64,000 bases of DNA from Leucoraja erinacea (lineage: Eukaryota). The stretch lies in assembly GCF_028641065.1 (NCBI RefSeq), contig NC_073393.1:15934001-15998000 (forward strand), in the 5' to 3' direction. The position numbers and the translations under genes are program-made. This document shows positions 5,927 through 51,883 of this stretch, one piece after another. The notes below the pieces were generated by a model, which was not told the DNA's origin, did no database searches, and worked only from the letters and a program-made list of their open reading frames with translations. Position 1 is the stretch's first letter; each line of letters opens with the position of its first letter.

Positions 5927-6031
5927 CTTTGGCAGAGCTTGATCCAAAAACAATTCTCAAGGTAGCCAACACCAGTAGAATGATCAATGTACCTCCTACA
6001 TTGCGAAGGACAAGGACAACGCTGGCCGAAC
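5927..6031 (-). CDS. Receptor gene A exon 4: transmembrane exon containing Arg (GSASVVLVLRNVGGTLIILLVLATLRIVFGSSSAK)
   Basis: Acceptor tttttacgtctgcag, donor G|gtgaat, 105 nt, phase 1-1. Aligns with paralogous TM exons at the VGG motif. Not in the ORF track. Confidence 0.82.
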
Positions 6032-9193: not shown

Positions 9194-11703
9194 CTGTAAC
9201 AGAAGAAAAATATGTTGCATATTTTCTTTCCAATTCAACGATAACATTCTAGTTTGCCTCGTCACACCGCGACCTGGCACTCCCACCATCAGATCGGTTA
9301 TCGGTACAATCGCTTTTGCACTCACTGATTTGTCATTGTTTTAGATTTGACAGTGAAATATATCCAAGCAATCCATAAGGAATCCGAGGTTTGGATGTAG
9401 GTAATATGTGGGCTTCTGAACCATCGCCAATGTTCTGAAGTGCCAAATCAGTAGCGTGGAGGGGGGTGTATAATCGCTGGCAACAACTTTTTATGTTCAG
9501 TTCAAAAATGACTGTTTTTACGAGATTTTGGTGTAAAGAATGATACGTGTAGAGTGGAATATCACAGAGATACACAGCACAGCACAGAGCAGCACAGATG
9601 ACCTATTGCGTCATTAAACCTCCATCTCCACGTATTCATTTTTCATCTCCTGTCAACTTTCCTCTTCACTCCTCACCACGACCAATCAACCGGGACAATT
9701 TACAGAGACTAGTTTTCCTACCAACCTGCAGATGTGTGGCATGCGGAATAAACCGGAGCACCGGTGGGATGTCTACGCGTTGAAGGGGAGAACTATATAT
9801 GGACGCACGCAGGATCCGGGTCGAACTTGGGTCGCTGAAATTGTGGGCAGCGCTAACCAATGTAGCGCTGTATATATCCAGATGTCACCAATATCAATAA
9901 TCAAGAGGAAGGCCGTAGTTGCGTAGATGAAAGCTTGGGCCACACAATTGTTTAATACCTGGGATGGAGGGCTCAAGTGATACAGCTTTTGGCCCGGGAC
10001 GTTTCTCCATAACGCTAACTGAGCAATTTGAGCATGATAGAGTTATACGAATAATTATTAAGAAGAAAATGCAGATGTCTGGAGAAGGATCTCGACCCAT
10101 TCCTTCTCTCCAGAGATGCTGCCTGTCCCGTTAAGTTACTTCAGCTTTTTGTGTCTATTTACTGATAATTAGTATCGCGTTGCAAATATTAGACACTTCT
10201 TCAATAAGTACAATACGCGAATGGGAAATCCAAATTAGACTACGTCTCTTCTACAATGTTGCCATTTTCCAAATGTACTCGGTTTGTTGAAGACGTTTGG
10301 TCTGAATGAGATTTCACATATCAGCACAGAGCTGACGCTGATCTACCTCCGGCGGATCTATAATCAGTAGCTAGTTAGTAGGAGGCCTCTTGTTAAATCG
10401 CTCTACGAGTTGATGACTACGAGTTTAATAAGTTTTAAATATTTTTACATTCCGTTTCTTTAGTAACAGGTTGTTGGATCGGTTTCTTTATTGAACTCGG
10501 AGGAGACCTCGATGCTTATTCTCAGCCTCGGCGAGTGCATCATCAGCTAAAACGTAAAATTAATCTGTGGCACGAACATAGATCTATTTAGATAGAATGA
10601 ATAATTGGGGGGAAACGTGGAGAGACTGATTCTTGTGGGAAACGTGGTTGAGTCATGTAAGAATGTAATTGTAAGGACGGGAGCTCAGGCGTTTGCCCCA
10701 ATGCCGTTTAATCTTACTCGTATTTTATAAAGGTTAAGGGTTTAATGAGAATCCTCGGAGTGAGACGGTGATATTCTGTCCCTGGAGTAAGAATCTAGAA
10801 ATCAAACCTCTCAACGGTTTATAGGATTCATCTGTATAGTAACCATGGTGGTTTGATCCGGGGTTCAGCTTCGTTTACAGCCGACGAATAAGAGTAGAAT
10901 ATTTAAGGCCGAGGCCGCTCCGTTGTTCAATTCAATCGTGGGTGGTTTGTGCGTCAGGTCTCTGTGTCACAAACCCTGTTGTCACATACCCCACGATACC
11001 TAATCTAAATGAATATTCTAACATCCCAATCTCGAGAGATCGATTTATTTTCTTGTTTCCAGACTTTAAGTGATTAAATGATTACAGATTTCGGAGATAA
11101 TTTGTAAGGTGGCGCGTAAAAAGCGAAAATTATGTGTGAATCAATATGGACTGCAAACACTATTCTTATGAGATTGTAACCACTATTGGCGTAGAGTGGT
11201 GGCGTTTGAATATTGTTTTAAAGAGCCTATCCAGGATGGAGGTGTTAAAATTATTCCGTTGTCTTCGGGAGCAGAAATGGGACATTCTTATCACAACTGA
11301 GATTAAAACATCCACGTGGCTTCAACATTTTCCATGAAAAACAATTCTAAACAACCTTTTAATCTAAGTCATTTGATGTAAATACATTCAAGCACACCAT
11401 GGAGGGTAGTAAAGGGTGAATCTGAATCGTGGGCAATAACGCCAAAGTGGACAGCGCGAATCTGCAGGAGAGCAATGGAAAATCTCTGGAGAAGTACGAA
11501 ATGAGGAAAAGGACATTTTCTCTCTACACAGATGCTGACCCACTTACGGATTATTTAAATATATCAGATTTGGAACGGTTTTTGTTTTTATAGTATAAAT
11601 CTTATCGAGTTTTTGCCGAGTTATAAAATGTCATGTTATTCATATCAGCGAGCTTTACTTGTACCCCAGGAAGCTTAAAATGTCTCCCTTACAGGGCACT
11701 TAC

Positions 11704-12009
11704 CGAACACGGTGAGCCTTGAGCCAGGTCCATCTCCGATAGATTGCTGCTGTTGTTTCAATTTACAATAATAAACTCCGGAGTCCGCGATTTTCGTATT
11801 CAGGAGAATGAAATCCGCACTGCCCTTTCTGATAGAAAATTGTTTTCTGCTGTCTGGTTCTATAAATGTCTTCTCGCCCCATCTCCACCAAGAAACAGCA
11901 GGAGTAACTTGTTGTATTGAGAATGTGCAGAACATGGACGCATTGCCTCCTCTGTGGACGGTCAGGTATTTAGGGAATTGGTCCACTTTGGTTGAAGTTA
12001 CTTCGAAGG
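11704..12009 (-). CDS. Receptor gene A exon 2: germline-joined VJ-type Ig domain (NKp30/NCR3-like)
   Basis: Acceptor ttatttctggcag, donor G|gtaagt, 306 nt, phase 1-1. Motifs VDQFP, MFCTF, VSWWR, DSGVYYC and J-like IGDGPGSRLTVF. Confidence 0.92.
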
Positions 12010-22758: not shown

Positions 22759-22869
22759 TCAACTTCTCGCTTTCTTTGAAACCTTTGCGTGTTTGCCGTT
22801 TTGCTTAGTTGTTGATTTGTTATTAGTTGGGAAGATGCGGAACAGCTTGTTGGCTCCCCCTCCTTTAGT
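22759..22869 (-). CDS. Receptor gene B terminal exon homolog without tyrosine motifs (phase 0: TKGGGANKLFRIFPTNNKSTTKQNGKHAKVSKKARS*; spliced directly from a TM exon it gives D*)
   Basis: The acceptor region (attacttccacag) and 5' end match gene C's last exon (attactttcgcag|AATAAAAGAGGTGGA). Confidence 0.55.
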   Translation of the reverse strand, partial: TKGGGANKLFRIFPTNNKSTTKQNGKHAKVSKKARS

Positions 22870-23817
22870 CTGTGGAAGTAATTCCATATCGGCCATTAGT
22901 CCATCGTAAAAACAATCGTTTTTATTTCCAATAACATTCTAAGGTACTCAACAATTATACATTTTAGTTTGCAGAAAGGTTATATGGATTTTATATCAAT
23001 ATTTTTCTCGATTTTTACATGAGCCGATCTTGGTCCACAGAACTATGTCATAGTTACGCGGATCCAAGTCTGCGCCGACCGTCAAACTCCCATTAACCCA
23101 AATTCTACTTTATTCTCTTCATATTGTCATTAACCTCCCATGCGCCCCCAAACTTTAGCAGTCCTCTACCAGATGAGCATATTACATGGGATAATTAACC
23201 CGCCATTCCACACATCTTTGAGATGTGCTAGAAAGCAGGAACACCGGAATATATCCACGGGGTCATAAGGAGAAGGAACAAACGTCAAACAGGCGACATT
23301 GAAGGCCAGATTAAGAGATTCGTTAAATTCTTAAACACATAGGATACTATCCATGTGAAGTACTAATATTGCACAGAGCCGTTTTGATGTATTTGTGTTT
23401 GATCGCTGGCAACCAGTTTCATCTGTCAAGGCCATGGTGTAAATTCCCATTCTGAATTTAGTGATACACTTCCATTTGTCAGTCGGATCACAGGTTGTTG
23501 CAATTAGCCGGCATGGCCATTTGGACAGATTGAAATGGGTTACTTTGCTCTCGGACACTCAGTTTCCTATCGGTTTTTCACGAGGGATACATTTCGGTGA
23601 ATACACTCAGGTGTTCAAAATGCATTGGTTCAGGGGAGGAGTGAATACATCGAATGGAAAGGTGAAATCATTGCATTTTAAGGCGCAGTTTACACTGGTA
23701 TAGCCAACTGTAAAATAGATAAATACTATGGACGTTCTGTTTAATTCCGAATAAAAACGCATATTTTCTCTTTTCTAGAAATACAATTGAAATAACTGAA
23801 CAATCCAAGGTTCTTAC

Positions 23818-23919
23818 CATGTTGTGCCGTCCATGCTAATCTGGTCAAAATTATAATCGAAAGTAAAATTACCAACCCGCCCACTGCACGTGTGAGAATC
23901 AGTCTTTTATAGGTACTTT
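23818..23919 (-). CDS. Receptor gene B second TM exon b, with Arg (ESTYKRLILTRAVGGLVILLSIIILTRLAWTAQH)
   Basis: Codon-for-codon paralog of TM exon a. Acceptor tttttcacctaatccag, donor G|gtaaga, 102 nt, open, phase 1-1. Not in the ORF track. Confidence 0.78.
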
Positions 23920-25125: not shown

Positions 25126-25233
25126 CCGGTTGCGCCTTTAATCCGAATCTTGTGAAAAATATGATCAGAATCACAATTACTAGTCCGCCCACTACACATC
25201 CAATAATTTGTGTTTTGTCAGTGGTTTCTGGAT
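25126..25233 (-). CDS. Receptor gene B TM exon a, uncharged (DPETTDKTQIIGCVVGGLVIVILIIFFTRFGLKAQP)
   Basis: Acceptor tgtttcgccag, donor G|gtaaga, 108 nt, phase 1-1. Confidence 0.88.
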
Positions 25234-33660: not shown

Positions 33661-35822
33661 TTATACACGGCCATGGTATAATCAAATCTAATCATGATTT
33701 TATTAGCGAATTATCTTTATTCCACCCATCATCCTCTTCAAAATCTTGATATTCAGTAGGCTAACACCTTTCTCTATTTCACAGTTCTGATCAGGGACCC
33801 CTCGTCTGAAATATTAAACGTTTTTCCCTCCAGTCTGCAGTCTGACCTGTTCATCTATCCAACCGTTTTGATTTCCTATTTTTACATCGTTTTGTCTCAG
33901 TTTCTATTTCCCATGTCTCATGAAAGGTTATAGGAGAACTATTAATTTCCCTATTCGTTTGCAAAATGTAGATTATTACAACATTCGTGATGTATAGAGT
34001 CAAGTAGAATTTATTGACATATGCAGAGGTCTGTACGGTACAGGTCCAAATTAAAGTTTGTATCCACCACATGCACATACCCATTGACTCGAACATGGGT
34101 GGCTGCAGGATGCTATACCCTAAATGGAGGAAAACCTGTGCGTGACTTTGTTTACCGTGGGGAGACTGGTGCACAGACAGATCTGGGCCAGGATCCAGTG
34201 GCACTAAACAATTTTCACAAACATATTATGGAATGAGGTTCACAAACAATTAATGTGTTAATACAGGGCCTTCGTGAAAGAACAGCTGAAGAGTGACGCT
34301 GTTTTTCTGAAGCGTTATGGGCTGATTAAAAAAATCAGGGCTTATTTTTACTTACCATCAGATACCCTCTACTTTTCAAAGTCGTTCATCTTCATGCTGG
34401 TTGCAACCGAAGAGCCCCGTGCAAGAGCCTTCCCCGTTTTTTTAATGAGCTCATTGGTGACCATCATCCAAACTTTGGAAACTTGCATTTCCCTTATACC
34501 TGTCACCAGATCTGCTGATATTGGATTTCAAAGTCAACTAGACCAAGTGGGACTCGTTGGGCCCCGTTCCCCCATCGCGATATTCCTTCACTCACCCATA
34601 GTTCCCAACTGCGCAGGCGCGGCGGATGCTTTTAAAGTTTAAAATGGCAATAACGTAAAAAATAAGATCGATGTTTAAGCATCTACTCTCCCTCTTCAGT
34701 CTCCTATTCCCCTCCTCCATTATCCACCCTCTCCCCAGTCTCCACCAACCCCCCTCTGCTTCCTCCCCTCACCCCTCCCTCCCCTCCTCATTCGTCCCCC
34801 TCCCCTCCTCCATTACCTCGCCATCCCTCTTCCTACCCCTATCCTCCTCCCTCCCACCTCATCTCCCAGCATTCCCTCTGCCTCCTCTTCACCCTCTTTT
34901 CTCTCGCCTCTTCCTCTCCCAAACTCCCTCCCTCACCTCTTCCTCCCTCTCCTTTCCCCTACCCTCAGCCACTCCCTCCCTCCATAAACTAGTAGAGTTG
35001 ATAAGGGAGAAGTAGTGGAGTGGAGTGGATAAGGGTGTAACTAGTGGAGCGGATAAGTGGAGTAACTAGTAGAGTGGATAAGGGAGAACCAGTGGATGTC
35101 TTATATCTGGGCTTTCAGAAGGCTTTATTTGCAATCAGTCACCCCATCCCAGAAACAACAGTACTTTAGAAAGAACATTTGTTTTGCTCATTTACAAGCA
35201 TGTACCATACAGTCCGTTGATCCATATCCAGCAAAATTGTGTGATAATTGCACAAAAGGTATTATTGTCTAAGGAATTTGGTGTGGAATGATATTCCATC
35301 TCAGTACTAATTTAAGGCGTCCCAAGCTATAGATACTTTCCCCCCACCCCCAATCCCTCTCGCCCAATCTTCATTGAACCTACCATTTGACCAATATTTT
35401 ACTCAGCTGCTGTAATGTTTCCTTCCTATCAAAATCTCTGTGTAGCATCTCTGTCCCTATCTTCAAATTCCCACTTTGAAATAAAATACCACTTAAAAAT
35501 TTCGCAGCAGGATCGCTATGTAAATGCAACTATATGGTATCCAAGAAGCATAACTTGAAGCGTTTGCATATGGAGAAGTTCGATACGGACCAGGAATGAA
35601 AATTAATAGTTATGCATAACATATTTCTGCTTCTACTTTGTATATTCTTATTTTTTATCTGCAATAGACAAATTCCAACAGTGAGCCTGTCTTTCATCGA
35701 AGTTGAAAATGGTCACTTGCTTTCTACCCTCTAACAATTATTACTCTAAATTCTGGACGCAACGTGAAACTTTGGGCTTGTACTCAAACAAATAGTCTAC
35801 CATCTAAACTGTATTTGGATTG

Positions 35823-35960
35823 TCAGTTACACGTCTTTTTTGAAGTATTCACATCAGCGTACACCGTGTATTTGTTGTTCTGTTTGGATGCTGATGTTTT
35901 CTTGGGGTTGTGATGTTGCACAGTTGCGTAGGTCAGCTTGTCATGTCCACCTCTTTTATT
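35823..35960 (-). CDS. Receptor gene C exon 7 (last): ITIM LTYATV and ITSM-type TVYADV
   Basis: Acceptor tactttcgcag. NKRGGHDKLTYATVQHHNPKKTSASKQNNKYTVYADVNTSKKTCN*, TGA at 35825-35823. The seven exons sum to 1047 nt (348 aa plus stop). Confidence 0.85.
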   Translation of the reverse strand, partial: NKRGGHDKLTYATVQHHNPKKTSASKQNNKYTVYADVNTSKKTCN

Positions 35961-36799
35961 CTGCGAAAGTAATTAATGATCGGTGATTAGACAATCATTC
36001 AGTGACGAATTTGAGCATACTGCTTTAAAATAATATTTTATGCAACCCATCAGTTGTTATTTTTACAATGGTATTGATTTGCAGATTTATTTTTGGCTAT
36101 ACCTTTCTGCTTGATATTGAGTTTAAACGCGAGGAGCTGTTCTTGTCCCACAAAAGAATTATTTTCTTTTTCTTTTATGTCAACTTCGACGTAATTACGT
36201 TAGGAGAATTGGTGAATGCTCAAAATTGTATCCGCAGTATTAAATATTTGGCATAATACGAAGCCCCTTTTAAAGTGTATTTGTGGGATTGGCGGGAATC
36301 CATTTTGCCTGTCGAGCCCAAGAGGTGGTTCGCAGACTGAAGCTACCGGTACCTCTCCAATAGACACCGCGGCTCACGGCTTCATCAGTGGCACCGAAAT
36401 GCAATAGAATATAAGTTGGTACTACTTCCTATAGCTCTGCGTCCCCAGTTGTTGACACGAGTCCCCTATTCGGTGGATAATTTGAACGGCCTGTTTACTC
36501 TCTTTTCCCAGGCCATTGTCTTGCATTTGTATTTAGTTTCGCCCTGATTATGAGAACTGGGTAGGTTTGTGTGTTCCTAGCTTCCCACCCTTTGTTTATT
36601 CACATACAATTTACATTTGAATTTAAACCCGAATAAGGAAAGGAAAATTATATTTATGCTCTGATGTGCAGCGGGTGATAGGTTTTATTTAAATGAAGAT
36701 TTGCTATTGTGCACATATTTTCCCTGCAGTTTGGAAAAAGCAACTACATTTGGAACAATGCTCATTCCATATCTTAATTACGCTGTCCAAGAGCATTAC

Positions 36800-36910
36800 C
36801 TGTGAATAGGCGACATGTTGTTCTTCTTGTAGACCATTTGAAAATCCTTTGCTCTCGCTTAAATTCAGCGTAGCATAGGCAGCGGCATGTTCAATTGGTG
36901 CTTGTCTCAC
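36800..36910 (-). CDS. Receptor gene C exon 6: cytoplasmic, tyrosine motifs AAYATL and VAYSQ
   Basis: Acceptor ttttctaatag, donor CAG|gtaatg, 111 nt, phase 0-0. VRQAPIEHAAAYATLNLSESKGFSNGLQEEQHVAYSQ. Confidence 0.82.
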
Positions 36911-37059
36911 CTATTAGAAAAGTACATTTAATACTGCGGGTGACCAGGCTTATATAGCTGATATGGCACTAGAACTGTAACTGGGGCTGAAAATCGATGC
37001 ACGGGGGATATAGAGGAATAGATTAACATTTCACTTGCTTTCAATGATATTACCAACTA

Positions 37060-37710
37060 TGTCATTTCAAGGAAGGGGGTGGATAATGGCGTTGGTCGAG
37101 TTTCCTGGCGATAAACATCACCAATAATTTGCACTGGTCCAACCACATTAATTCTAACGCCATGAAAGCACACCGTTGCCTCGACCTTCCCAGAGGACCA
37201 AGGAAAGTTGGACGGTCTCCAAAGTCTCTTCCCAAATTCCACAGCTGCACTGTCGAAATAATTATATGGGGATGAATCCCAAATTGGTTTAGCGACAGCT
37301 TTGCCCAGGACCTTAAGAAACGCAGGAACCTGTGATTGCAGCCCAGCCAACCACGTAAACAAGCTTCCGTCATTCTCTCCTCTTCCCTCGGCGGACAGAA
37401 TACACAATAGGTTTAAATCTCCTTGTGTAAGATTTAAAAACAGCTTTATACTCGATGTTATCAAGTTACTAAACAGGCGTCGCGCAAGCTAATGGTGCAA
37501 TCCTGATCTGTGATTTACCTCGTTCTGGTCCTTGCGTTTTTAAAATGTGCACTCTCTCTTTAGCTGTAACACAATATTTTGCATCCTGTGTCATTTCCCT
37601 TTTTGCACTTGGGTATGGTTAGATTGTACCCATACATGGTATCCATTTTCCGGATTGCACGCAAAATAAAGTTTATAATTGAATCTCGGTGTACATGACA
37701 ATAATTAACC
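37060..37710 (+). mobile_element. Rex1/Babar LINE degraded 3' fragment in a gene C intron
   Basis: FLAINITNNLHWSNHI..; 3' end gtacatgacaataatt. Confidence 0.65.
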
Positions 37711-38407
37711 AGTGCCAATACGAATATCAGTCTTTTGCAGATTTTGGAGATTTCTTCTTCTAAGCATTGCAGAGTGGAAGATGCATTTATGGGATTCCAT
37801 TTAGCAGCCAGCACAAAATAGTAATTTTGTGGCAAGCAGTTTCGATGCCACGTAGGCCATATCCGGTGAAATGGCCCTTCGTTAAGGATCGAAGCCAAAA
37901 CTGCAATTAACACGTTAAAGAACGGCTCAAGAAAGCAAATTAAATTCTCGACAAAGGTTCTTTTCATTTTTATTTTAATTACCGTGCTTTGGAATTCAAT
38001 ATAACTTTTGCCTTACGGATTGATTGTTGCACTTACTCTCCCATTGGTCAGCAACCCACAATCTCTTCGTAGTCTGATATTTGATACGTTCTCACTATCT
38101 AAAATTATATTTTAAAGTGTACTTGAACTAATACCCCCAGAACTAATAAAAGCTCATATTTTCATCCTAAACATCACTTTAGAATAAATTAGGATATGAT
38201 CTGGCATGGAATTGACAAAAGATGTTGAAGCAGATACAACAGGAATTTTCAAATTATTAGTGGAGGTATACTTGACGTAACCTGAAAAATAAATAATGGT
38301 TTCATCCTGCCCTAGAATATTCCACGATACTATAGAATAAAACTGATTTATAATATTTCTGCTACGAATAATCCCTATCTTGAAACAACAGGAGACATTT
38401 CACATAC

Positions 38408-38451
38408 CGGCTCCCCGTTCGGACGTATGCCTACAGAGGTTACGTTATGGC
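38408..38451 (-). CDS. Receptor gene C exon 5: short cytoplasmic exon (GHNVTSVGIRPNGEP)
   Basis: Acceptor tttcattcctctag, donor CCG|gtatgt. Its 44 nt convert phase 1 to the phase 0 needed by the next exon. Confidence 0.75.
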
Positions 38452-39097
38452 CTAGAGGAATGAAATGAGAGTTACATAAAACAACTTCAATTGTAAAGAT
38501 TGATCTGTAGATTTTGACATTATTCTTCTCATATTAATCAAATTTACTGTAGAAAATAAGAACGATTGCATTTTTAAATATCAGATGGTGCTCAGCAGCA
38601 CCAATTGTCACAGTTATAACAATACAACGCATCTTGTACTCTTTCGCGATGTTGCGCCCACTGGACCTAAATTTTAACTGAAACTTTAAAATAGTAATGG
38701 TTTATAAGGAACCGTGTCCATGTCGAAACAGCAATGTAATGTAAACATATGGAGATGTTTGGTTTTGCTCATTGCCACAGAAAACCACAGTTGTTTTTTA
38801 CTCAAAATAGTAATCTTCCATTGCATTAATTATCAATCACACTGGATGTTTGAAGAATTCCTTATATTTGAAAATATATGCATAGGTGATAATTGAATAC
38901 ATCCAATTCCAAGCTGAAATAATTGAATTTGAAGATCCATCATATTATCACACACATATATCAAAATCGGCTTCAGAACTCTCTTTACATGTCCATCTAC
39001 GTTTCCTTTTCTCCTCTGTGAGCAAACACCATTGACATATCCATTCTCGTTTTAACCATAGAAATTATTATTGTATGATTATTATCACGATTCTTAC

Positions 39098-39196
39098 CGT
39101 GCCACATCTTTAAACTGAGTCTTATCACGATTATAATCAGAATTAAAATTACTGATCCACCTACTGCATATACGATAATCTGTTTGCGACCAATTC
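39098..39196 (-). CDS. Receptor gene C exon 4: uncharged transmembrane exon (GIGRKQIIVYAVGGSVILILIIIVIRLSLKMWH)
   Basis: Acceptor atccaccag, donor G|gtaaga, 99 nt, phase 1-1. Paralog of the other TM exons. Confidence 0.85.
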
Positions 39197-39726
39197 CTGG
39201 TGGATTAACAGAAAATTTAGAAACTGTAAAGAATTTATACATTTCAGAACAAATATACAAACGGCAGTCAACAAAGTAAATCATTTCGTAGGTGCATTTT
39301 AATACCCACATCGGAAAGTTTGGAAGGTATATCATGAGGCACCAGATGGAAGTTAGTAATGGAACCCACAGGACAAGCAATTGCCGTTGTATTGTGCCCA
39401 TGTGCGGAGAGCTGCTTACTGACGTTAAACGGAATATAGACTTTATCTTCATATATTTCACCAGACAGTAGATATATGCATATCCCAGGACGTTTTTGCT
39501 CATTACAATCATTATATCAATTCAGTTTGTCAATTCATCTCACACGGATTTCCTTACAAGAACTGATGAAGTACAATTAATTTTAAACAGCATGCAAGTG
39601 TTGCTTTCATGCGAATAAATGCGAGCCACATTTACCCTTACCCTTGTACGGAAAGCTGTCCAGTTATTAATCTGATCAAATTTGATCTACCGCCCCAATA
39701 TCATGTGTAACTGGCTCCAGTCTTAC

Positions 39727-40020
39727 CTTGGCCCAGGGTATAACTGAAACTGGCCGCCACCTTCAGGGAGACATGTGATACCAGACAGGTGTAAATATCT
39801 TTGCCCTCCCCAGGCTGCGTTATTTCCAAAGAACTAGTAGCCACAAACAATCCTTCTTCGCTTAGATTTTTCACAGTTTCGATTCCAGTGCGAATTTCCT
39901 CGTTATTTCTTAGCCAGAATATTTCTAATTTCTCCGGATAAAAGGCGCCAGTTTTGCACACAAGTTTCCGTGGAGATCCAAGTCCTTCAGCAGGAACAAT
40001 TGTCAAGGGAGTTGGGGGAT
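39727..40020 (-). CDS. Receptor gene C exon 3: C1-set Ig domain
   Basis: Acceptor tttctttgcttaag, donor G|gtaaga, 294 nt. LVCKTGAFYP..WLRN..YTCLVSHVSL. Confidence 0.92.
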
Positions 40021-40754
40021 CTTAAGCAAAGAAAAAAAAATATCGGGTGTTAGCTTTCCATTTCATTGTAAATATTCACATTTTATCTCGCCATCGAGTC
40101 GTATTTGTCACTACCAAATTATTTAATATTTAAACTTCCCAGTTTGTCGTTCATTTATACTCCCTTTCCTAGCGGACAACCGGACGACCTCCGCCAAGAT
40201 ACAAAGAGGGTGGATTTAAGGAGTGCCAACAGAATTTAAGGAGTTCCAAAATAAACTCTGTTACGAATGGACGTTCCCCGGTATCGCACGAAAGTTTTTG
40301 CCAGAAGCCTGCCGTGATTATTTAAAAGTGGCCATGTTCGGATTATTCATATATTGCAAAAGAAATGGAGCCATCATAATCGAAATATAACAGATTCGTA
40401 TAGTGTGGTGACAGGAAGCAGTTATACATGAAGATTAATGATGAATCCCGTTAGCACTTTAAGTAGTATATGGATTAAATCTTCTCACCCTGGTCAAAAG
40501 GACCCACTTCAACATTTAATCACTACTCTACTCTACTCTACTCACTCCGACATGCGGGAGATAACCACTTATCACGTGTTTGCGCAGTAATCAACCAGAA
40601 CCAGAACCAGATATGGGTTTGAAATGCCGATCACAACCATTTACCTGCATGTGAACCAAGTGCTGGAACACCTTTCTCGCGCATTGAATGCTTATAGTGA
40701 AACACCGTGGTTTTTATTACAAGCAATTTACGAGCGCACTTATTCAATATCAGT

Positions 40755-40960
40755 ATGTAGGAAAGAACTGCAGATGCTGGTTTAAACCGAATATATGTTG
40801 GAGTAACTCAGCGGGACAGGCAACATCTCTTCGGAGAAGGAATGGGTGACGTTTCGGATCGAGGTTTGAAGAAGGGTATAGACCCCAAACGTCACTCATT
40901 CCTTCTACCCAGAGATGCTGCCCGCCCCGCTGAGTTACTCCAGCATTTTGTGTCTCTATA
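40755..40960. repeat. Penelope-derived terminal repeat in head-to-head inverted arrangement; related copies near 10080, 12200, 16680, 26105, 47140, 49250, 55395, 58775 and 60000
   Basis: ggagtaactcagcggg..aggaatgggtgacgttt / aaacgtcactcattcc..cccgctgagttactcc. Confidence 0.7.
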
Positions 40961-41892
40961 CAAATCAGTTCCATCTGTTGTGCCAACTTGGCGACAGTGA
41001 ATCGACAACGTTAGATCGGCGTTAATGATGATAGCTGGCAGAAGCCAAACGATGGAATATAACAAGCTCTGTTTCTCGCTGTGCGGATTCTACTCATTTT
41101 GGTCTGCACGTAAAAGGCCCTATATTTGGCATTTATTAACGCGAGCTCCTTCCGTACGAGCTACAGCCGGTGTCTAACTGGACAGGGAGTTGATTGTTGG
41201 GTTGCTTTGTCCGTTTATTACAAATCTTTAGAAACCTTGACTTAATTCACTTAATCAGGATAATCTTTAACGATGAAATAAATGTTACTGTTTATTCCCG
41301 GACTTTAAATAATTTCATTTGAGATGTTGTTTACTTCTTTTTTCCCCCGTACGGTGCCAAATTGCTTGAATAGACTGAGGTTATGCCTGACAAAATTAGT
41401 GTCAAGCGATTTCAAAAAAAAGAAAAAAGATTTCATTGAAGTAGCTTGGAATCAGCAGCGATGAGTCCCACATGTTAGAAAACCAAGATCCTTGGGTTGC
41501 AGCAGCACATTGGTCTTATGAGGTTCTAAAGCTGTCGATGTAGAATAGAGGCATGACAGACTCTACCATCGACGTATTGCTCCTACTCTCTTTTCTTAGT
41601 GATGAGAAACCTGGACATCACACTCCAGCTACTAAAACTAACAGGAATATTATTTCAATATTTCATTGCAAAACATTTCTAACCACACCTCAGAATGAAT
41701 TCCTTCCATCTCAGCATTTACCCGTTCTTAGCGATAAATCCATCTGGGAGATTAGCTTAAAATTCGGGACCGCTAAATGAATGGGCTGCGCCAATTCATA
41801 GCGGCAATGAAAAGGAGTCTCGCAAAGTATCGTAAAATGAACAGAATAACCCTCAATCCCCACGCGTCCCACAAGTGCTACTCGACCTGCAA

Positions 41893-42197
41893 GGGGTCAC
41901 AGCTTAAGGATAAGGGGGAAATCCTTTAAAACCGAGACGAGAAGAACTTTTTTCACACACAGAGTGGTGAATCTCTGGAACTCTCTGCCACAGAAGGAAG
42001 TCAATGCCAGTTCATTGGCTATATTTAAGAGGGAGTTAGATGTGGCCCTTGTGGCTAAGGGGATCAGAGGGTATGGAGAGAAGGCAGGTACGGGATACTG
42101 AGTTGGATGATCAGCCATGATCACATTGAATGGCGGTGCAGGCTCGAAGGGCCGAATGGCCTACTCCTGCACCTAATTTCTATGTTTCTATGTTTCT
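41893..42197 (+). mobile_element. CR1 LINE 3' end in the gene C V-C1 intron
   Basis: Same subfamily as the copies at 3771 and 33290; (TTTCTATG)n tail. Confidence 0.88.
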
Positions 42198-42363
42198 TTG
42201 TTATGTCCATTGTGCTTTGTTTCATTTTGAATGACTGGTCCCTGTAATTTAAAATTGCCATTACCTATTTATCAACAGGCGATTTTTCATATTACCCTCG
42301 CGACTAGACTTTACAAATGACATAGAACTGAAAATTGCTTATTTCCCTAACACACACACTCAC

Positions 42364-42669
42364 CAAATACGGTGATCAGGCAGCCACTTCCATTCCCGAT
42401 AACCTGATGCTGTGACTTTACTTGACAGTAATACAGGCCGGAGTCAGCGGCACGCACATTTTGGAGAGTAAATATTCCCCTTCCAGAATCTATCGTAAAT
42501 TGTTTTCTACTGTCCGGTTCAAGGAATGTCTTCATGCCGTCCCTCCACCAATTAACGCCAATATTGTCTTTCGATATTGGAAATGTGCAATACATGATAG
42601 CATGTTCACCGCCGCCAACGTCCAAGGTGACAGGGAATTGGGACACTCTGGTCGAATAGACTTCGGTAG
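42364..42669 (-). CDS. Receptor gene C exon 2: germline-joined VJ-type Ig domain
   Basis: Acceptor ttttcccgacag, donor G|gtgagt, 306 nt. VSQFP, MYCTF, VNWWR, DSGLYYC, IGNGSGCLITVF. Confidence 0.92.
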
Positions 42670-42862
42670 CTGTCGGGAAAAAAGCAAGAGCAATTGAAAC
42701 AGTTGTAAACACTGGACAGAGAAAACAGGAACCAACTGTCGAAAAGCACGAAACAACTATAAACCCACGAGGGCCTAATAGATGAACCTAATAGCTCGAA
42801 ACCAGGTCCGAATTTACGAAAAATAATACTTAGACCAGAAATGGCACACATTTTAACTATAC

Positions 42863-42917
42863 CCTGCGTTAGTATGACCAGAAGAGCCATGGACCAAACT
42901 CTAACTTTCACCGACAT
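42863..42917 (-). CDS. Receptor gene C exon 1: leader MSVKVRVWSMALLVILTQ
   Basis: ATG at 42917, 55 nt, donor G|gtatag. Homologous to the A and B leaders. Confidence 0.8.
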
Positions 42918-44214
42918 ATTACAAGAATAAATTGTCAACTTGTTGTTAGTTTACTCAAAACTTGCTCTGCGGAAAAGGAAATTATGAGTAAATATATGAA
43001 ACGTGTCCGTGACGTAATATATCCCACGACTGTGGCTCGTGCGGCGGGAGAGGTCATAGCTCGGCCCATTCCCATTGTAACAAAGCCTTCCAATACTTCC
43101 TGAATTGGATATATGTTTGTATTGTTTTTATGGTGGTGGGTTCTGGCTTGTTTTATTGTAGTGTAAATATTATTTTTAATAATTGAATAAATTTTGTTGG
43201 AATAAAAAAATAATAATTAAAAAAAAATACTTCCTGAATCATGTTCACAACCTCCTCCCGTAGCATCCAGATTTTTACTCGGAATTAAATTTGCATCAGC
43301 TGCCTACTCAGTTAATTGTCACAAATCGTTTCCGCGTAGAAGGTAAGGAGTGCTTGTGAATATTTAGATGCACAAACGTAGACACCCACCTTCCTTTGAA
43401 TCTCCCCCCCCCCCCCCCTTCCCAATTTGTGTTGTGCTCTTTCGCTCTTTCGATTATATACATTCAAACAACAATCACCCATTTCGTTTCTTCCTGTTCA
43501 GCCCTCACCATCGCCATCCGCAGCTTTCTATTGATTATGTTTCCATCTGACGTTTTTCACACTAACTCCGGTTGCTATTCCTACAAAACCAAATCTCCAT
43601 ACTGGTTTTTGTTAACTAATATTTCTACTATTTTCATAAACACCATTGCAGCAATATTCTATGGGGAGTCCAGCAGAAAATTGGCGCCAAGCCGCGACAG
43701 CTAACGTATGAACGAAATCTAGGTTTTTTCTTCCGATAATGCACAGTAGATCAATCAACTTATGCTGTTGACATCCACACAACACAGGAGAATAGGGGCT
43801 GTAAATTAATCGAATGGGCCAATATAAATTAGGGAGATTTAAACCAAACTGTTAATCTTATAATTTCCTCCAAAGTATTGTTTTAAAAATCGTAGAAATG
43901 AAGGGTTACTTAAAGTTTGGACTACAGGCAAGAAGCCAACGTTGTGAGCGAGGCGGTTTGAACTCTTTATGTTTTCCCCGTATCGTGGTTATACTCACAT
44001 TCCTCTGCACAAATCAATGATTTTGGCTTCAGAACACACATTAAATTGCACGAGCAGAAACCTGTTGTAGACCAAATGGTTAAGTAATTTTCGTGTAATT
44101 TAAATGTTTGATGCGCCTCACTTAGAGACCTTGTGCCGTTCAATGGGAGGACATAATATTCCAAATATACACAGTAATTCTCTGGATATTTTTTAAATTA
44201 CTGAAATCGGGCAG

Positions 44215-49628: not shown

Positions 49629-50402
49629 GGATCTCAGAACACGAGCGCTCAGTCCGCCAAGGTCTGCTGGTGCTTCCAGTCACTACATGCTGATGCACGT
49701 ACTGATTTGTTTTGCTTTACACGTGGACCATATGAAGTTGCCAACAGTAATGTCTGGGCAAATGGAACCATCCGTGCAGAACTTACATATTCTGTTCCAC
49801 TGTAGGTGGCTATGCCACTGGCGTCACTGAGGCGCTTTGCTCCGCCAGGCTATCATCACATGACTGACTAATTCCATTTCATTACAAGTGTATTCATTAG
49901 TGGTGCACTTGATTGGTTGATGGGTTTCTTCAGATTTCCTTCTCTGGTTTGTGTTGACGTTAGTGTATTTCGAAACAAATGAGAGGACAAAGGCTCAGGT
50001 GCATTGAAAAAGCATGGAATTTAATGAAGGGAAAATATATTGGTTGCACAACTGAATAATCGGCGGGTTTTTTTTAATCAGACATCATTAAGTGACATGT
50101 TATCACGAACGGACGTGGCCATAGTTTCTTCACAAAGCACCAGCGAAATTATTCACATTTGAGAACAGAAGTAAAATAAACAAACACGATCTTTAAAATT
50201 TACAACAAATGCAAACTGGCACGTTCATCCCTGCTTTCAGAAAGTGTTGGATGCTTGTTAGATGATGGTCACTTACACCAAAACATTGACTCAATGCAGG
50301 TGAAAACGACCTGCAGCTCCAACGATTGTTACCATGGGAGTTCATTAGCTTGGCTGCAATGATCATAACGTAGCAATATTTCCGCCTGCAATTATTCACA
50401 GT

Positions 50403-50552
50403 CTACAGCTTCGATTTCCAGCTTCGCTCCTTCTTTAAAACATTTCCATCTGCATAAGGTACATGTTCCTCTTTCTGGTTAAATGTTACTGCTGATTGGA
50501 GTTGAGTAACTGCAAATCGACATGATACAACCTAAAATTTATCATCTTTAGT
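50403..50552 (-). pseudogene. Receptor gene D degenerate terminal exon (early stop; remnant EEHVPYADG where gene C has TVYADV)
   Basis: The acceptor context actaatggccgatataaattactttcacag|ACTAAAG is nearly identical to gene B's. Phase 0 reads TKDDKF*, phase 1 reads D*. Confidence 0.55.
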
Positions 50553-51784
50553 CTGTGAAAGTAATTTATATCGGCCATTAGTCAATTACCCTCTGGTGGC
50601 ACAAAGAATACGATTTTGAAACAAAATACTGCCAGTCTCATAGAGAATGTATATACATTTCAGGATTCATACTCATCCATGAGACTGCACCAACGTGCAA
50701 ACAAATATGGAATTGCTATCCGTCATCTTTAATGATACACGGGCACGGGATTAAAAGTGCTTCACTGCAAGTTGGGGAACTGCTTCTAATGAGTTGAGAA
50801 AACAGTAGTTTATTCTAAAACTGCATTGCGCGCTACTGCTGGGGTGGATTATTCTGTGTTTTAGTGTTGTTTCGTTGAGTTAGCGATCTTCCAGTGATCT
50901 GCCAGTAGCAAATTGTTATCAGATTTTTTTTTTGCCATTCTTCACTAATTTCCTTTCCCTGATTTCACTTAGTGTTGATCTTCGGTGCTACTAATCATTC
51001 CTGGCCCACAGAACAACATTAGCTTTCTTCGTTATTGCCGATCATTTGTATGAACGTAAATGGAATCTGCTTTAGGGGGCAGACGAATAGTAGATTTAAA
51101 GTAGCAAACATTTAATATTACGTATTAAAAATGCTGATAATGCAAAGTACAATTTTAAGATTCGCTGATAGACCGTTTAACCTATATTGCCATGGGGTAG
51201 ATGCTACATTGAACCTGCCTACACAATTGTCAGGAAATCAATGGTCGCTCGGAAATAGAGTTGTTTATAGTGTCCTTGGGCTGAAATCATCCAACATGGT
51301 GTACTCTACTTATCGAGACCACACACAAGATTAGAAGTTATTCAACCAGAGCTGAACACACGTCTCGGCATCTGCATACAATGGTGGCTGCCTTGCGCAT
51401 CTTGTGCTTCTAGTGCGTGGTGGTGGGAAAGATTGGTGGAAACAGGGCCGCGACGTGCACGCTCCTTCCTTGACCCCATTGCATACTTGGTAGATTGAAA
51501 GTGTTATCACTGCACTCTGCTTAATATCCGTCGGCTTCGGCACCACTACCGAATTTCGGTGAATTCAGTAACCGATGGAGACAACAAAAATAAACGACGA
51601 TTGAAACATTGACATGGGAAGATGTAAGATTTATATCTCGAGTTTTATTTTTGTCATTGTTAATGGTCAGTTTTATTCTCAATTGTTTTATTGTTTTGCA
51701 ATCGAATAGCATTTACTGCCCTTGTTTTTTTAAACACAATTATGATTAAGACCGAGAATACCGTAAGATGTGTATAAATCTCAC

Positions 51785-51883
51785 CATTTTGTGCCTTTAA
51801 TTGGAGCCTTATCAAGATAATGGCCAAAACTAAAACTGCCAAGACACCCACTGCGCATCCGATAATTAGGTTTTTATCTGCAT
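51785..51883 (-). CDS. Receptor gene D transmembrane exon, uncharged (DADKNLIIGCAVGVLAVLVLAIILIRLQLKAQN); leader, V and C1 exons not in the assembled sequence
   Basis: Paralog of the B and C TM exons. Acceptor ccataag, donor G|gtgaga, 99 nt. An N gap starts 166 nt upstream. Confidence 0.78.

What the first reader, a model, noticed from the sequence alone, without database searches (positions are those of the whole stretch)
35823..38451. Gene C has an inhibitory tail with four tyrosine motifs, including an ITIM and an ITSM
Seen: three phase-compatible exons encode AAYATL, VAYSQN, LTYATV and TVYADV, arranged as two similar units of one exon each, which looks like an exon duplication. Known: LxYxxV fits the ITIM consensus and TxYxxV the ITSM consensus. 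An ITIM+ITSM pair occurs in PD-1, BTLA and Siglecs, and two such units occur in SIRPa. Inference: a SHP-1/SHP-2-recruiting checkpoint-like receptor on an NKp30-like ectodomain. Two of the three exons are missing from the ORF track.
Basis: partly seen in the sequence, partly recalled or inferred. Interest (0 to 1): 0.75.

Follow-up and report, generated by a model that had tools for sequence, protein, structure and literature searches.

The report
Ray immune receptor with brake tail
This is an intact gene for an antibody-like surface receptor of a skate- or ray-like fish whose tail ends in two standard 'off-switch' tyrosine motifs, so it likely dampens immune cells; it sits in a cluster of 29 related genes of a cartilaginous-fish family that databases model but name inconsistently.

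Summary
The exons and motifs are real. Gene C (minus strand, seven exons, 348 aa, all introns GT-AG) encodes leader, a short J-like V domain, one C1 domain, an uncharged membrane helix and a 97-residue tail. Ray, shark and chimaera protein models share the tail layout, and its two motif exons are under purifying selection. Only the last exon carries canonical motifs (ITIM LTYATV, ITSM TVYADV, 23 residues apart). The first unit has decayed: AAYATL lacks the -2 residue, and VAYSQN has Asn at +3. So the tail holds one intact ITIM+ITSM pair, not two. Exon duplication is supported by relatives with one to four 37-residue units. The ectodomain is not NKp30: it has a C1 domain and no membrane arginine. 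It also fails the V-C1-C1 test for SIRP. It belongs to a family of paired V-C1 receptors found only in cartilaginous fish in my searches, with 29 V-C1 pairs on this chromosome. SHP-1/SHP-2 recruitment is inferred. RNA reads did not confirm the junctions. I found no paper on the family, but four key papers were not held.

The parts
42863..42917 (-). Leader exon (ATG, 55 nt, phase 1 end)
   Evidence: similar leader exons upstream of paralogues
42364..42669 (-). V exon with germline-joined J-like GxGxxxxV end; short domain, Cys-to-Cys 54 residues, no C' or C'' strand predicted
   Evidence: Pfam V-set E 2.7e-07; G93, G95 and V100 at least 90% conserved in 52 sequences; model pLDDT 92
39727..40020 (-). 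C1-set exon
   Evidence: Pfam C1-set E 4.1e-12; 57-71% identical to 12 ray and shark proteins
39098..39196 (-). Transmembrane exon, no charged residue in the helix
38408..38451 (-). First cytoplasmic exon (44 nt, no tyrosine)
   Evidence: a segment at the same place in ray proteins; a 44-nt exon candidate at the same place in paralogue 16,087 kb
36800..36910 (-). Internal 37-residue tail unit, phase 0-0 cassette. Carries AAYATL (36883-36866; A at -2) and VAYSQ (36814-36800; +3 residue comes from the next exon)
   Evidence: 57% identical over 35 aa to Hypanus P0008; dN/dS about 0.20 against paralogue 16,087 kb; absent from Mobula isoform X2
35823..35960 (-). Terminal tail unit with ITIM LTYATV (35936-35919) and ITSM TVYADV (35867-35850), tyrosines 23 residues apart, then stop
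   Evidence: 37% identical over 35 aa to chimaera P0170, E 5e-05; dN/dS about 0.26 against paralogue 16,087 kb

Best explanation
Gene C is an intact V-C1 transmembrane receptor gene whose last exon encodes one ITIM and one ITSM 23 residues apart, and it likely acts as an inhibitory member of a paired-receptor family by recruiting SHP-type phosphatases. Shown: the gene structure, the motifs, purifying selection on both motif exons, the same layout in ray, shark and chimaera models, and 29 related V-C1 pairs on the chromosome. [quoted passage not shown] The upstream 37-residue exon is an old duplicate of the same unit. In this copy it would add at most one weak site (Tyr278), while Tyr301 lacks the hydrophobic +3 residue. 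Neighbours with a membrane arginine would be the activating partners, and neighbours with motif-less tails would be silent or decoy forms.
For: Open seven-exon model with GT-AG introns. Mobula P0003 and Hypanus P0008 have the same three tail segments. Against paralogue 16,087 kb only V, C1, the two motif exons and two intronic segments that I take to be repeats align, with dN/dS about 0.20 and 0.26 on the motif exons. Among 38 distinct homologue tails with a unit, the last unit starts with a canonical ITIM in 33 of 38 and its second tyrosine has V, L or I at +3 in 35 of 38; spacing is 23 in 59 of 67 units and 22 in 8. That lies at the low end of the 23-30 spacing used to pick tandem motifs that bound SHP-2 about tenfold better (PMC3958483, passages). 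[quoted passage not shown] The two best language-model look-alikes of the Hypanus orthologue are SIRP-alpha clusters, 0.97 and 0.96. Gene A of this window has an arginine at the start of its predicted membrane exon, as do 7 of the 8 hand-picked short-tailed homologues.
Against: No signalling or binding test exists. No read in five raw RNA runs (1-25% of each read, tissues unknown) fell on any exon, so the junctions are not shown directly. The supporting relatives are computer gene models. Several of them end right after the first cytoplasmic segment with no tyrosine motif (P0001, P0002, P0009, P0020). The dS values against the paralogue are near saturation (1.47 and 1.05) on 37 and 42 codons. 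Neither motif has the aromatic +4 or +5 residues that favour SHP-2 binding (PMC12151841 section 20).
Confidence: 0.72

Rival explanations
1. All four tyrosines work, as two tandem docking units like SIRP-alpha; the internal second motif binds a partner that does not need a hydrophobic +3 residue.
For: The internal second tyrosine is kept from chimaera to rays, with Thr at +3 in 20 of 29 internal units. The exon is under purifying selection. The sister copy at 16,101 kb has Thr at -2 of the first motif and Thr at +3 of the second.
Against: In gene C both positions have changed (Ala at -2, Asn at +3). Four Mobula models have lost the first tyrosine altogether (P0007, P0016, P0017, P0018), and one Mobula isoform model skips the exon.
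Confidence: 0.12
2. The tail is a switch: SAP (SH2D1A) binds the terminal ITSM in lymphocytes and makes the receptor co-stimulatory there.
For: TVYADV has Thr at -2 and a hydrophobic residue at -1, which PMC12151841 (passage) names as the condition for phosphorylation-independent SAP binding. A sh2d1a-like gene is listed for a bamboo shark T-cell subset (PMC11372145, passage).
Against: The -2 Thr is not kept in many relatives (ALYADV, SLYADV, AVYAEV), and distant members have Glu at -1 as PD-1 does. An ITIM precedes the motif at tandem spacing. SAP was not searched for in this genome.
Confidence: 0.08
3. This copy is silent or decaying, or makes mainly a short-tailed decoy form that ends in the intron after the first cytoplasmic exon.
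For: It is a recent duplicate with two motif-weakening changes relative to its sister. Some ray models end in what looks like read-through at that place (P0005, P0006, P0020). No exon reads in the raw runs laid.
Against: All splice sites and the frame are intact. The C1 and tail exons differ from the sister copy at a higher rate at silent than at replacement sites, although counts are tiny. The terminal pair is canonical.
Confidence: 0.08
4. On descent, a separate question from function: the family is the cartilaginous-fish orthologue of SIRP, with one C1 domain fewer.
For: SIRP-alpha is the sixth best solved-structure sequence for the family profile and aligns over V and C1 in one stretch (E 6.6e-31). 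It heads the Atlas feature search. The tandem tail resembles the SIRP-alpha ITIM1+2 peptide printed in PMC3958483.
Against: One C1, not two. Immunoglobulin chains and UrIg2 score higher in the same search. The neighbour found is AMFR, while the SEP-domain genes (NSFL1C flanks human SIRP, recalled) lie on contigs C4 and C21. All 40 named hits of 41 in the profile search are cartilaginous fish.
Confidence: 0.2

Closest known systems
NCBI-modelled cartilaginous-fish V-C1 receptors (XP_062923465.1 Mobula hypostoma, XP_059849429.1 Hypanus sabinus, XP_067906043.1 Heterodontus francisci, XP_007902825.2 Callorhinchus milii)
   Same: Same domain order and same tail units; gene C groups with the stingray and manta proteins at support 97/90.
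   Different: They carry automatic, conflicting names (SIRP-alpha-like, NCR3LG1-like, tapasin-related, TCR-beta-like, PD-L1-like). I found no functional study of them.
SIRP-alpha and the SIRP paired family
   Same: V domain followed by C1-set, tandem tyrosine motifs, clustered relatives with a charged membrane residue or a short tail (PMC12975943, passages).
   Different: One C1 instead of two; a shorter V domain; only one intact motif pair in this copy; different neighbour gene; CD47 binding unknown.
PD-1 and BTLA
   Same: ITIM followed by ITSM (Tyr223 and Tyr248 in human PD-1, PMC12151841).
   Different: PD-1 has a single V domain and a stalk, and cartilaginous fish have their own PD-1 orthologue (same paper). 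Gene C is V-C1 in a 29-member cluster.
NKp30 (NCR3)
   Same: Germline-joined VJ-type domain (PMC11599192, passage).
   Different: NKp30 has one Ig domain, a membrane arginine and no signalling tail (PMC6514059, passages); gene C differs in all three.
NITRs of ray-finned fish
   Same: Large cluster of VJ-type receptors with inhibitory, activating and ambiguous forms (bioRxiv 10.1101/2021.06.11.448072, passages).
   Different: The NITR second domain is an I domain with six cysteines; here it is a two-cysteine C1-set domain.
PRARP / VJ-C1 genes and UrIg/UrIg2
   Same: Non-rearranging VJ exon followed by C1 (PMC10751288 and PMC12227049, passages). UrIg2 is the second best solved sequence for the family profile.
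   Different: UrIg is secreted with three C domains. The PRARP and VJC1 papers were not held, so their tails and gene neighbours could not be compared.

Membership tests
ITIM/ITSM inhibitory receptor (functional class) | ITIM consensus S/I/V/LxYxxI/V/L in the cytoplasmic tail | tested here: met
   LTYATV at Tyr314; AAYATL and VAYSQN do not meet it
ITIM/ITSM inhibitory receptor (functional class) | ITSM consensus TxYxxV/I at tandem spacing from the ITIM | tested here: met
   TVYADV at Tyr337, 23 residues after Tyr314
ITIM/ITSM inhibitory receptor (functional class) | Phosphorylation-dependent SHP-1/SHP-2 binding and inhibition of activation | not testable with these tools
   Needs pull-downs and cell assays
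SIRP | Ectodomain V-C1-C1 | tested here: not met
   One C1 exon between V and the membrane exon in gene C; one C1 per V across the cluster, with one extra C1-like segment at 16,242 kb
SIRP | Paired members: ITIM tail versus charged membrane residue | tested here: met
   Arg in the predicted membrane exon of gene A and of short-tailed homologues; adaptor binding untested
SIRP | Conserved gene neighbourhood (NSFL1C and PDYN in human, recalled) | tested here: inconclusive
   SEP-domain genes on C4 and C21, one opioid-precursor hit on C5, an AMFR exon about 50 kb from the cluster; only 100 of 675 flank frames were scanned
SIRP | Binds CD47 | not testable with these tools
   The CD47 family search in the genome was blank and its control was blank too
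NKp30 (NCR3) | Single extracellular IgV domain | tested here: not met
   A C1-set exon follows the V exon
NKp30 (NCR3) | Arginine in the membrane helix and no signalling tail | tested here: not met
   Uncharged helix and a 97-residue tyrosine tail
NKp30 (NCR3) | V domain closest to NKp30 | tested here: inconclusive
   NKp30 Z 12.4, rmsd 2.7, 96 aligned, row 50; VNAR Z 14.9, rmsd 2.0, 96 aligned, row 1; many unrelated Ig domains lie between.
CD28 family (PD-1) | Single V domain, stalk, membrane helix | tested here: not met
   V-C1 ectodomain
NITR | I domain with six conserved cysteines | tested here: not met
   Second domain is C1-set with two invariant cysteines
NITR / VJ-type receptors | J-like GxG motif in the V exon | tested here: met
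   G93, G95 and V100 conserved in at least 90% of 52 sequences; the Phe and Thr of the J consensus are not kept in gene C
PRARP / VJC1 | Non-rearranging VJ-C1 membrane protein | tested here: met
   this architecture alone does not show orthology
PRARP / VJC1 | Orthology by tree and by linkage to CD1, MHC or antigen-receptor loci | not tested
   Source papers not held; no PRARP sequence was fetched

The most novel reading that the evidence does not exclude
Cartilaginous fish keep their own large complex of germline VJ-C1 paired receptors, shaped like one chain of an antigen receptor and older than the chimaera-shark split. It would be their counterpart of KIR, NITR or SIRP for self versus non-self sensing. 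Brake strength would be set by adding, skipping or degrading a 37-residue ITIM-ITSM exon, and ligand-binding V exons would be swapped between inhibitory and non-inhibitory copies by recombination.
Probability: 0.25. Interest if true: 0.8.

Novelty: new variant of a known kind. Interest (0 to 1): 0.42.

Why it matters
An ITIM+ITSM tail on an Ig-family receptor is ordinary, and relatives of this gene are already modelled in NCBI. The interest lies in the family: 29 V-C1 genes on one chromosome with inhibitory, arginine-bearing and motif-less members, and lineages shared between sharks and rays. Non-rearranging VJ-C1 genes are the sought-after relics of the antigen-receptor ancestor, and paired innate receptor families are little charted in the oldest jawed-vertebrate lineage. 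If the family senses self or pathogen ligands, it gives a direct handle on how missing-self control looked when adaptive immunity began. The modular tail also offers a natural series (one to four units, intact or decayed) for testing SH2 docking rules.

Tried and rejected
RNA. The run search listed no RNA holder, which is no evidence on expression. Eight runs were laid: X8, X12, X15, X7 at 95% likeness on 35150-43100 and X23, X18, X24, X6 at 80% on 35600-40700. Only intronic or flanking segments, which I take to be repeats, drew reads; no exon or junction did. Tissues are unknown, and the runs were added by species label only. A candidate exon at 38098-38037 with a strong donor was rejected: after the 44-nt exon it brings a stop, and neither of the two frames tested matched any homologue. 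Read-through of the 36800 donor would give VAYSQV, a canonical ITIM, but any phase-0 GT donor reads as Val, so this is not evidence. An AATAAA follows within 400 nt in gene C but not in its sister, so I do not claim that isoform. Positive selection on V was not found: dN/dS 0.64 and 0.84 against the two nearest copies. DNA-level similarity of the two motif exons was not above chance. A profile of arginine-type membrane segments found nothing convincing in the clusters; gene A's exon came from a hydropathy and splice-site scan. The CD47 search was uninformative. The whole-protein fold search returned only antibody and TCR chains with low TM-scores. Pfam on 100 flank frames gave mobile-element domains and one CUE exon. 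Not held: a recalled DOI for a shark NCR3 paper, Fu 2019 (PRARP), Ohta 2019 and Flajnik 2012. No supplements were read. No complex was predicted, because the proposed binding depends on phosphotyrosine.

Full report
1. Observation. The region lies on the minus strand. A seven-exon model runs leader 42917-42863, V 42669-42364, C1 40020-39727, membrane 39196-39098, then 38451-38408, 36910-36800 and 35960-35823. All six introns are GT-AG and the frame is open for 348 residues. The tail is 97 residues with five tyrosines. With the consensus in PMC8999077 (one passage), LTYATV is an ITIM and TVYADV an ITSM; AAYATL and VAYSQN are neither. An ITIM followed by an ITSM appears in 33 of 100,000 shuffles of the tail.

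2. Are the tail exons real? I could not show the junctions in RNA (see Tried and rejected). Two independent lines support them. First, a search with the C1 exon found 12 ray and shark proteins at 57-71% identity. Mobula P0003 and Hypanus P0008 have the same three tail segments in the same order, and Mobula birostris isoforms X1 and X2 differ by exactly the 37 residues of the middle exon. These are computer models, not checked transcripts. Second, against the distant paralogue at 16,087 kb of the same contig, the segments that align are V, C1, the two motif exons and two intronic pieces that I take to be repeats. dN/dS is about 0.20 and 0.26 on the motif exons, with silent sites near saturation.

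3. Exon duplication. Within gene C the two units are weakly alike (protein z 2.9; DNA not significant). Across paralogues the match is clearer: up to z 6.7 with 0 of 2000 shuffles as good, and a profile of terminal exons scores the internal exon of paralogue 16,087 kb at E 3.6e-08 and that of gene C at E 0.012. Among 98 fetched proteins of up to 520 residues, 38 distinct tails held at least one unit: 15 had one, 18 two, 4 three and 1 four. Proteins with no membrane helix were skipped except two, two more were left out by hand because the helix call was wrong, and a unit is missed when its first tyrosine is lost. Tyrosine spacing was 23 in 59 of 67 units and 22 in 8; the finder allowed 19-24. 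The +3 residue of an internal unit's second motif is the first codon of the next exon. It is Thr in 20 of 29 cases and V, I or L in 6. In last units it is V, I or L in 35 of 38. So the family constant is one intact terminal pair, and the upstream units vary. Gene C has drifted further than its sister at 16,101 kb, which has Thr at both changed positions, while paralogue 16,222 kb keeps four intact motifs, one across the junction.

4. The ectodomain. Pfam gives V-set plus C1-set. The V exon ends in a J-like GxG strand, conserved across 52 sequences. The predicted V fold (pLDDT 92) has no C' or C'' strand; Cys-to-Cys spacing is 54 in gene C's subfamily and 59 in most others. Its best structural matches are shark-type VNAR domains in both searches, probably because these also lack that part; identity is only 20-25%. 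NKp30 is row 50. By sequence profile the best solved relatives are Ig chains, UrIg2 and SIRP-alpha; by language-model features, SIRP-alpha clusters (run on the Hypanus orthologue). NKp30 has one Ig domain and a membrane arginine (PMC6514059, passages), and SIRPs have V-C1-C1 (PMC12975943, passages). Gene C fits neither.

5. The family. In 864 kb of contig C17 I found 29 V-C1 pairs: 18 at 15.92-16.33 Mb and 11 at 19.89-20.10 Mb, none with a stop in V or C1. By proximity, about 14 of the 29 have a detectable tail unit. An AMFR exon lies about 50 kb beyond the first cluster. The tree of 56 V-C1 sequences (four homologues skipped by the parser) puts gene C with two near copies, beside stingray and manta proteins at support 97/90, which places the host among skates and rays. 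Other cluster members pair with shark proteins at full support, so several lineages predate the shark-ray split. Chimaera members exist. In the profile search all 40 named hits of 41 were cartilaginous fish, though that search needs shared words and can miss distant relatives. Gene C looks like a mosaic: its leader-V part is 96% identical to the copy at 16,114 kb, which has no intact tail, and 85% to the copy at 16,101 kb, whose last 4.2 kb are 97% identical to gene C. Assembly error in this duplicated block was not excluded.

6. Mechanism. Shown: structure, motifs, constraint and family context. Inferred from established ITIM/ITSM biology: ligand binding, Src-family phosphorylation of Tyr314 and Tyr337, and two-point binding of a tandem-SH2 phosphatase. 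PMC3958483 (passages) picked motif pairs 23-30 residues apart and found about tenfold tighter SHP-2 binding to tandem than to single motifs. [quoted passage not shown] The ligand and the expressing cell type are unknown.

7. What is known. Eight full-text searches aimed at this family listed no paper describing it. I also read passages of PMC10751288, PMC11599192, PMC12227049 (plus part 1 of 8), PMC11372145 and bioRxiv 10.1101/2021.06.11.448072; the passages I saw do not mention it. Four likely papers were not held, and no supplements were read, so an earlier description cannot be excluded. Two earlier AI notes from other genomes report the same family; they are leads, not support.

8. Verdict. 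The feature is real and probably an inhibitory receptor with one working ITIM+ITSM pair. It works like SIRP-alpha or PD-1 but is a member of neither family by the tests that could be run, and it is not NKp30. The single gene is ordinary and its relatives are already modelled. The family appears undescribed and is worth a study. Interest 0.42.

Noticed in passing
window 5927-6031 (-), gene A (V 11702-11995, C1 8904-9191): Predicted membrane exon with an arginine near its start; no tail unit was detected in the window. Likely an activating partner of gene C.
   Followed up: partly
window 25133-25222, 23818-23919 and about 22760-22870 (-), gene B: Two alternative-looking membrane exons, the second with an arginine in the helix, and a terminal exon that has lost both tyrosine motifs. 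Its sister at G000:C17 16,087 kb keeps two tail units.
   Followed up: partly
window about 51792-51881 and 50400-50560 (-): An orphan membrane exon and a decayed terminal exon upstream of gene C, with no V or C1 exon found for them.
   Followed up: partly
G000:C17 15.91-15.99 Mb and 16.03-16.11 Mb: A four-gene block is duplicated (pairs 15,923/16,046, 15,945/16,066, 15,962/16,087, 15,976/16,101 kb), and gene C looks like a recombinant of two copies.
   Followed up: partly
window 42364-42669 (-): The V domain has a third cysteine in its last strand, which the two nearest copies lack; it may be unpaired or form a dimer bond.
   Followed up: no
L074:4678-5091 (-): CUE-domain exon nearly identical to human AMFR, the nearest non-family gene found beside the cluster.
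   Followed up: partly
G000:C17 19.89-20.10 Mb (L041-L063): A second cluster of 11 V-C1 genes about 3.6 Mb away, most with tail units; one (19,950 kb) has lost three of its four tyrosines.
   Followed up: partly
L008 (G000:C17 16,073,480-16,073,720, -): A broken C1 exon, in three pieces with a stop, and no V exon detected beside it.
   Followed up: no
window 38037-38098 (-): An exon-like stretch with a strong donor; one frame reads an ITIM-like SDYEEI and then stops. No homologue carries it.
   Followed up: yes
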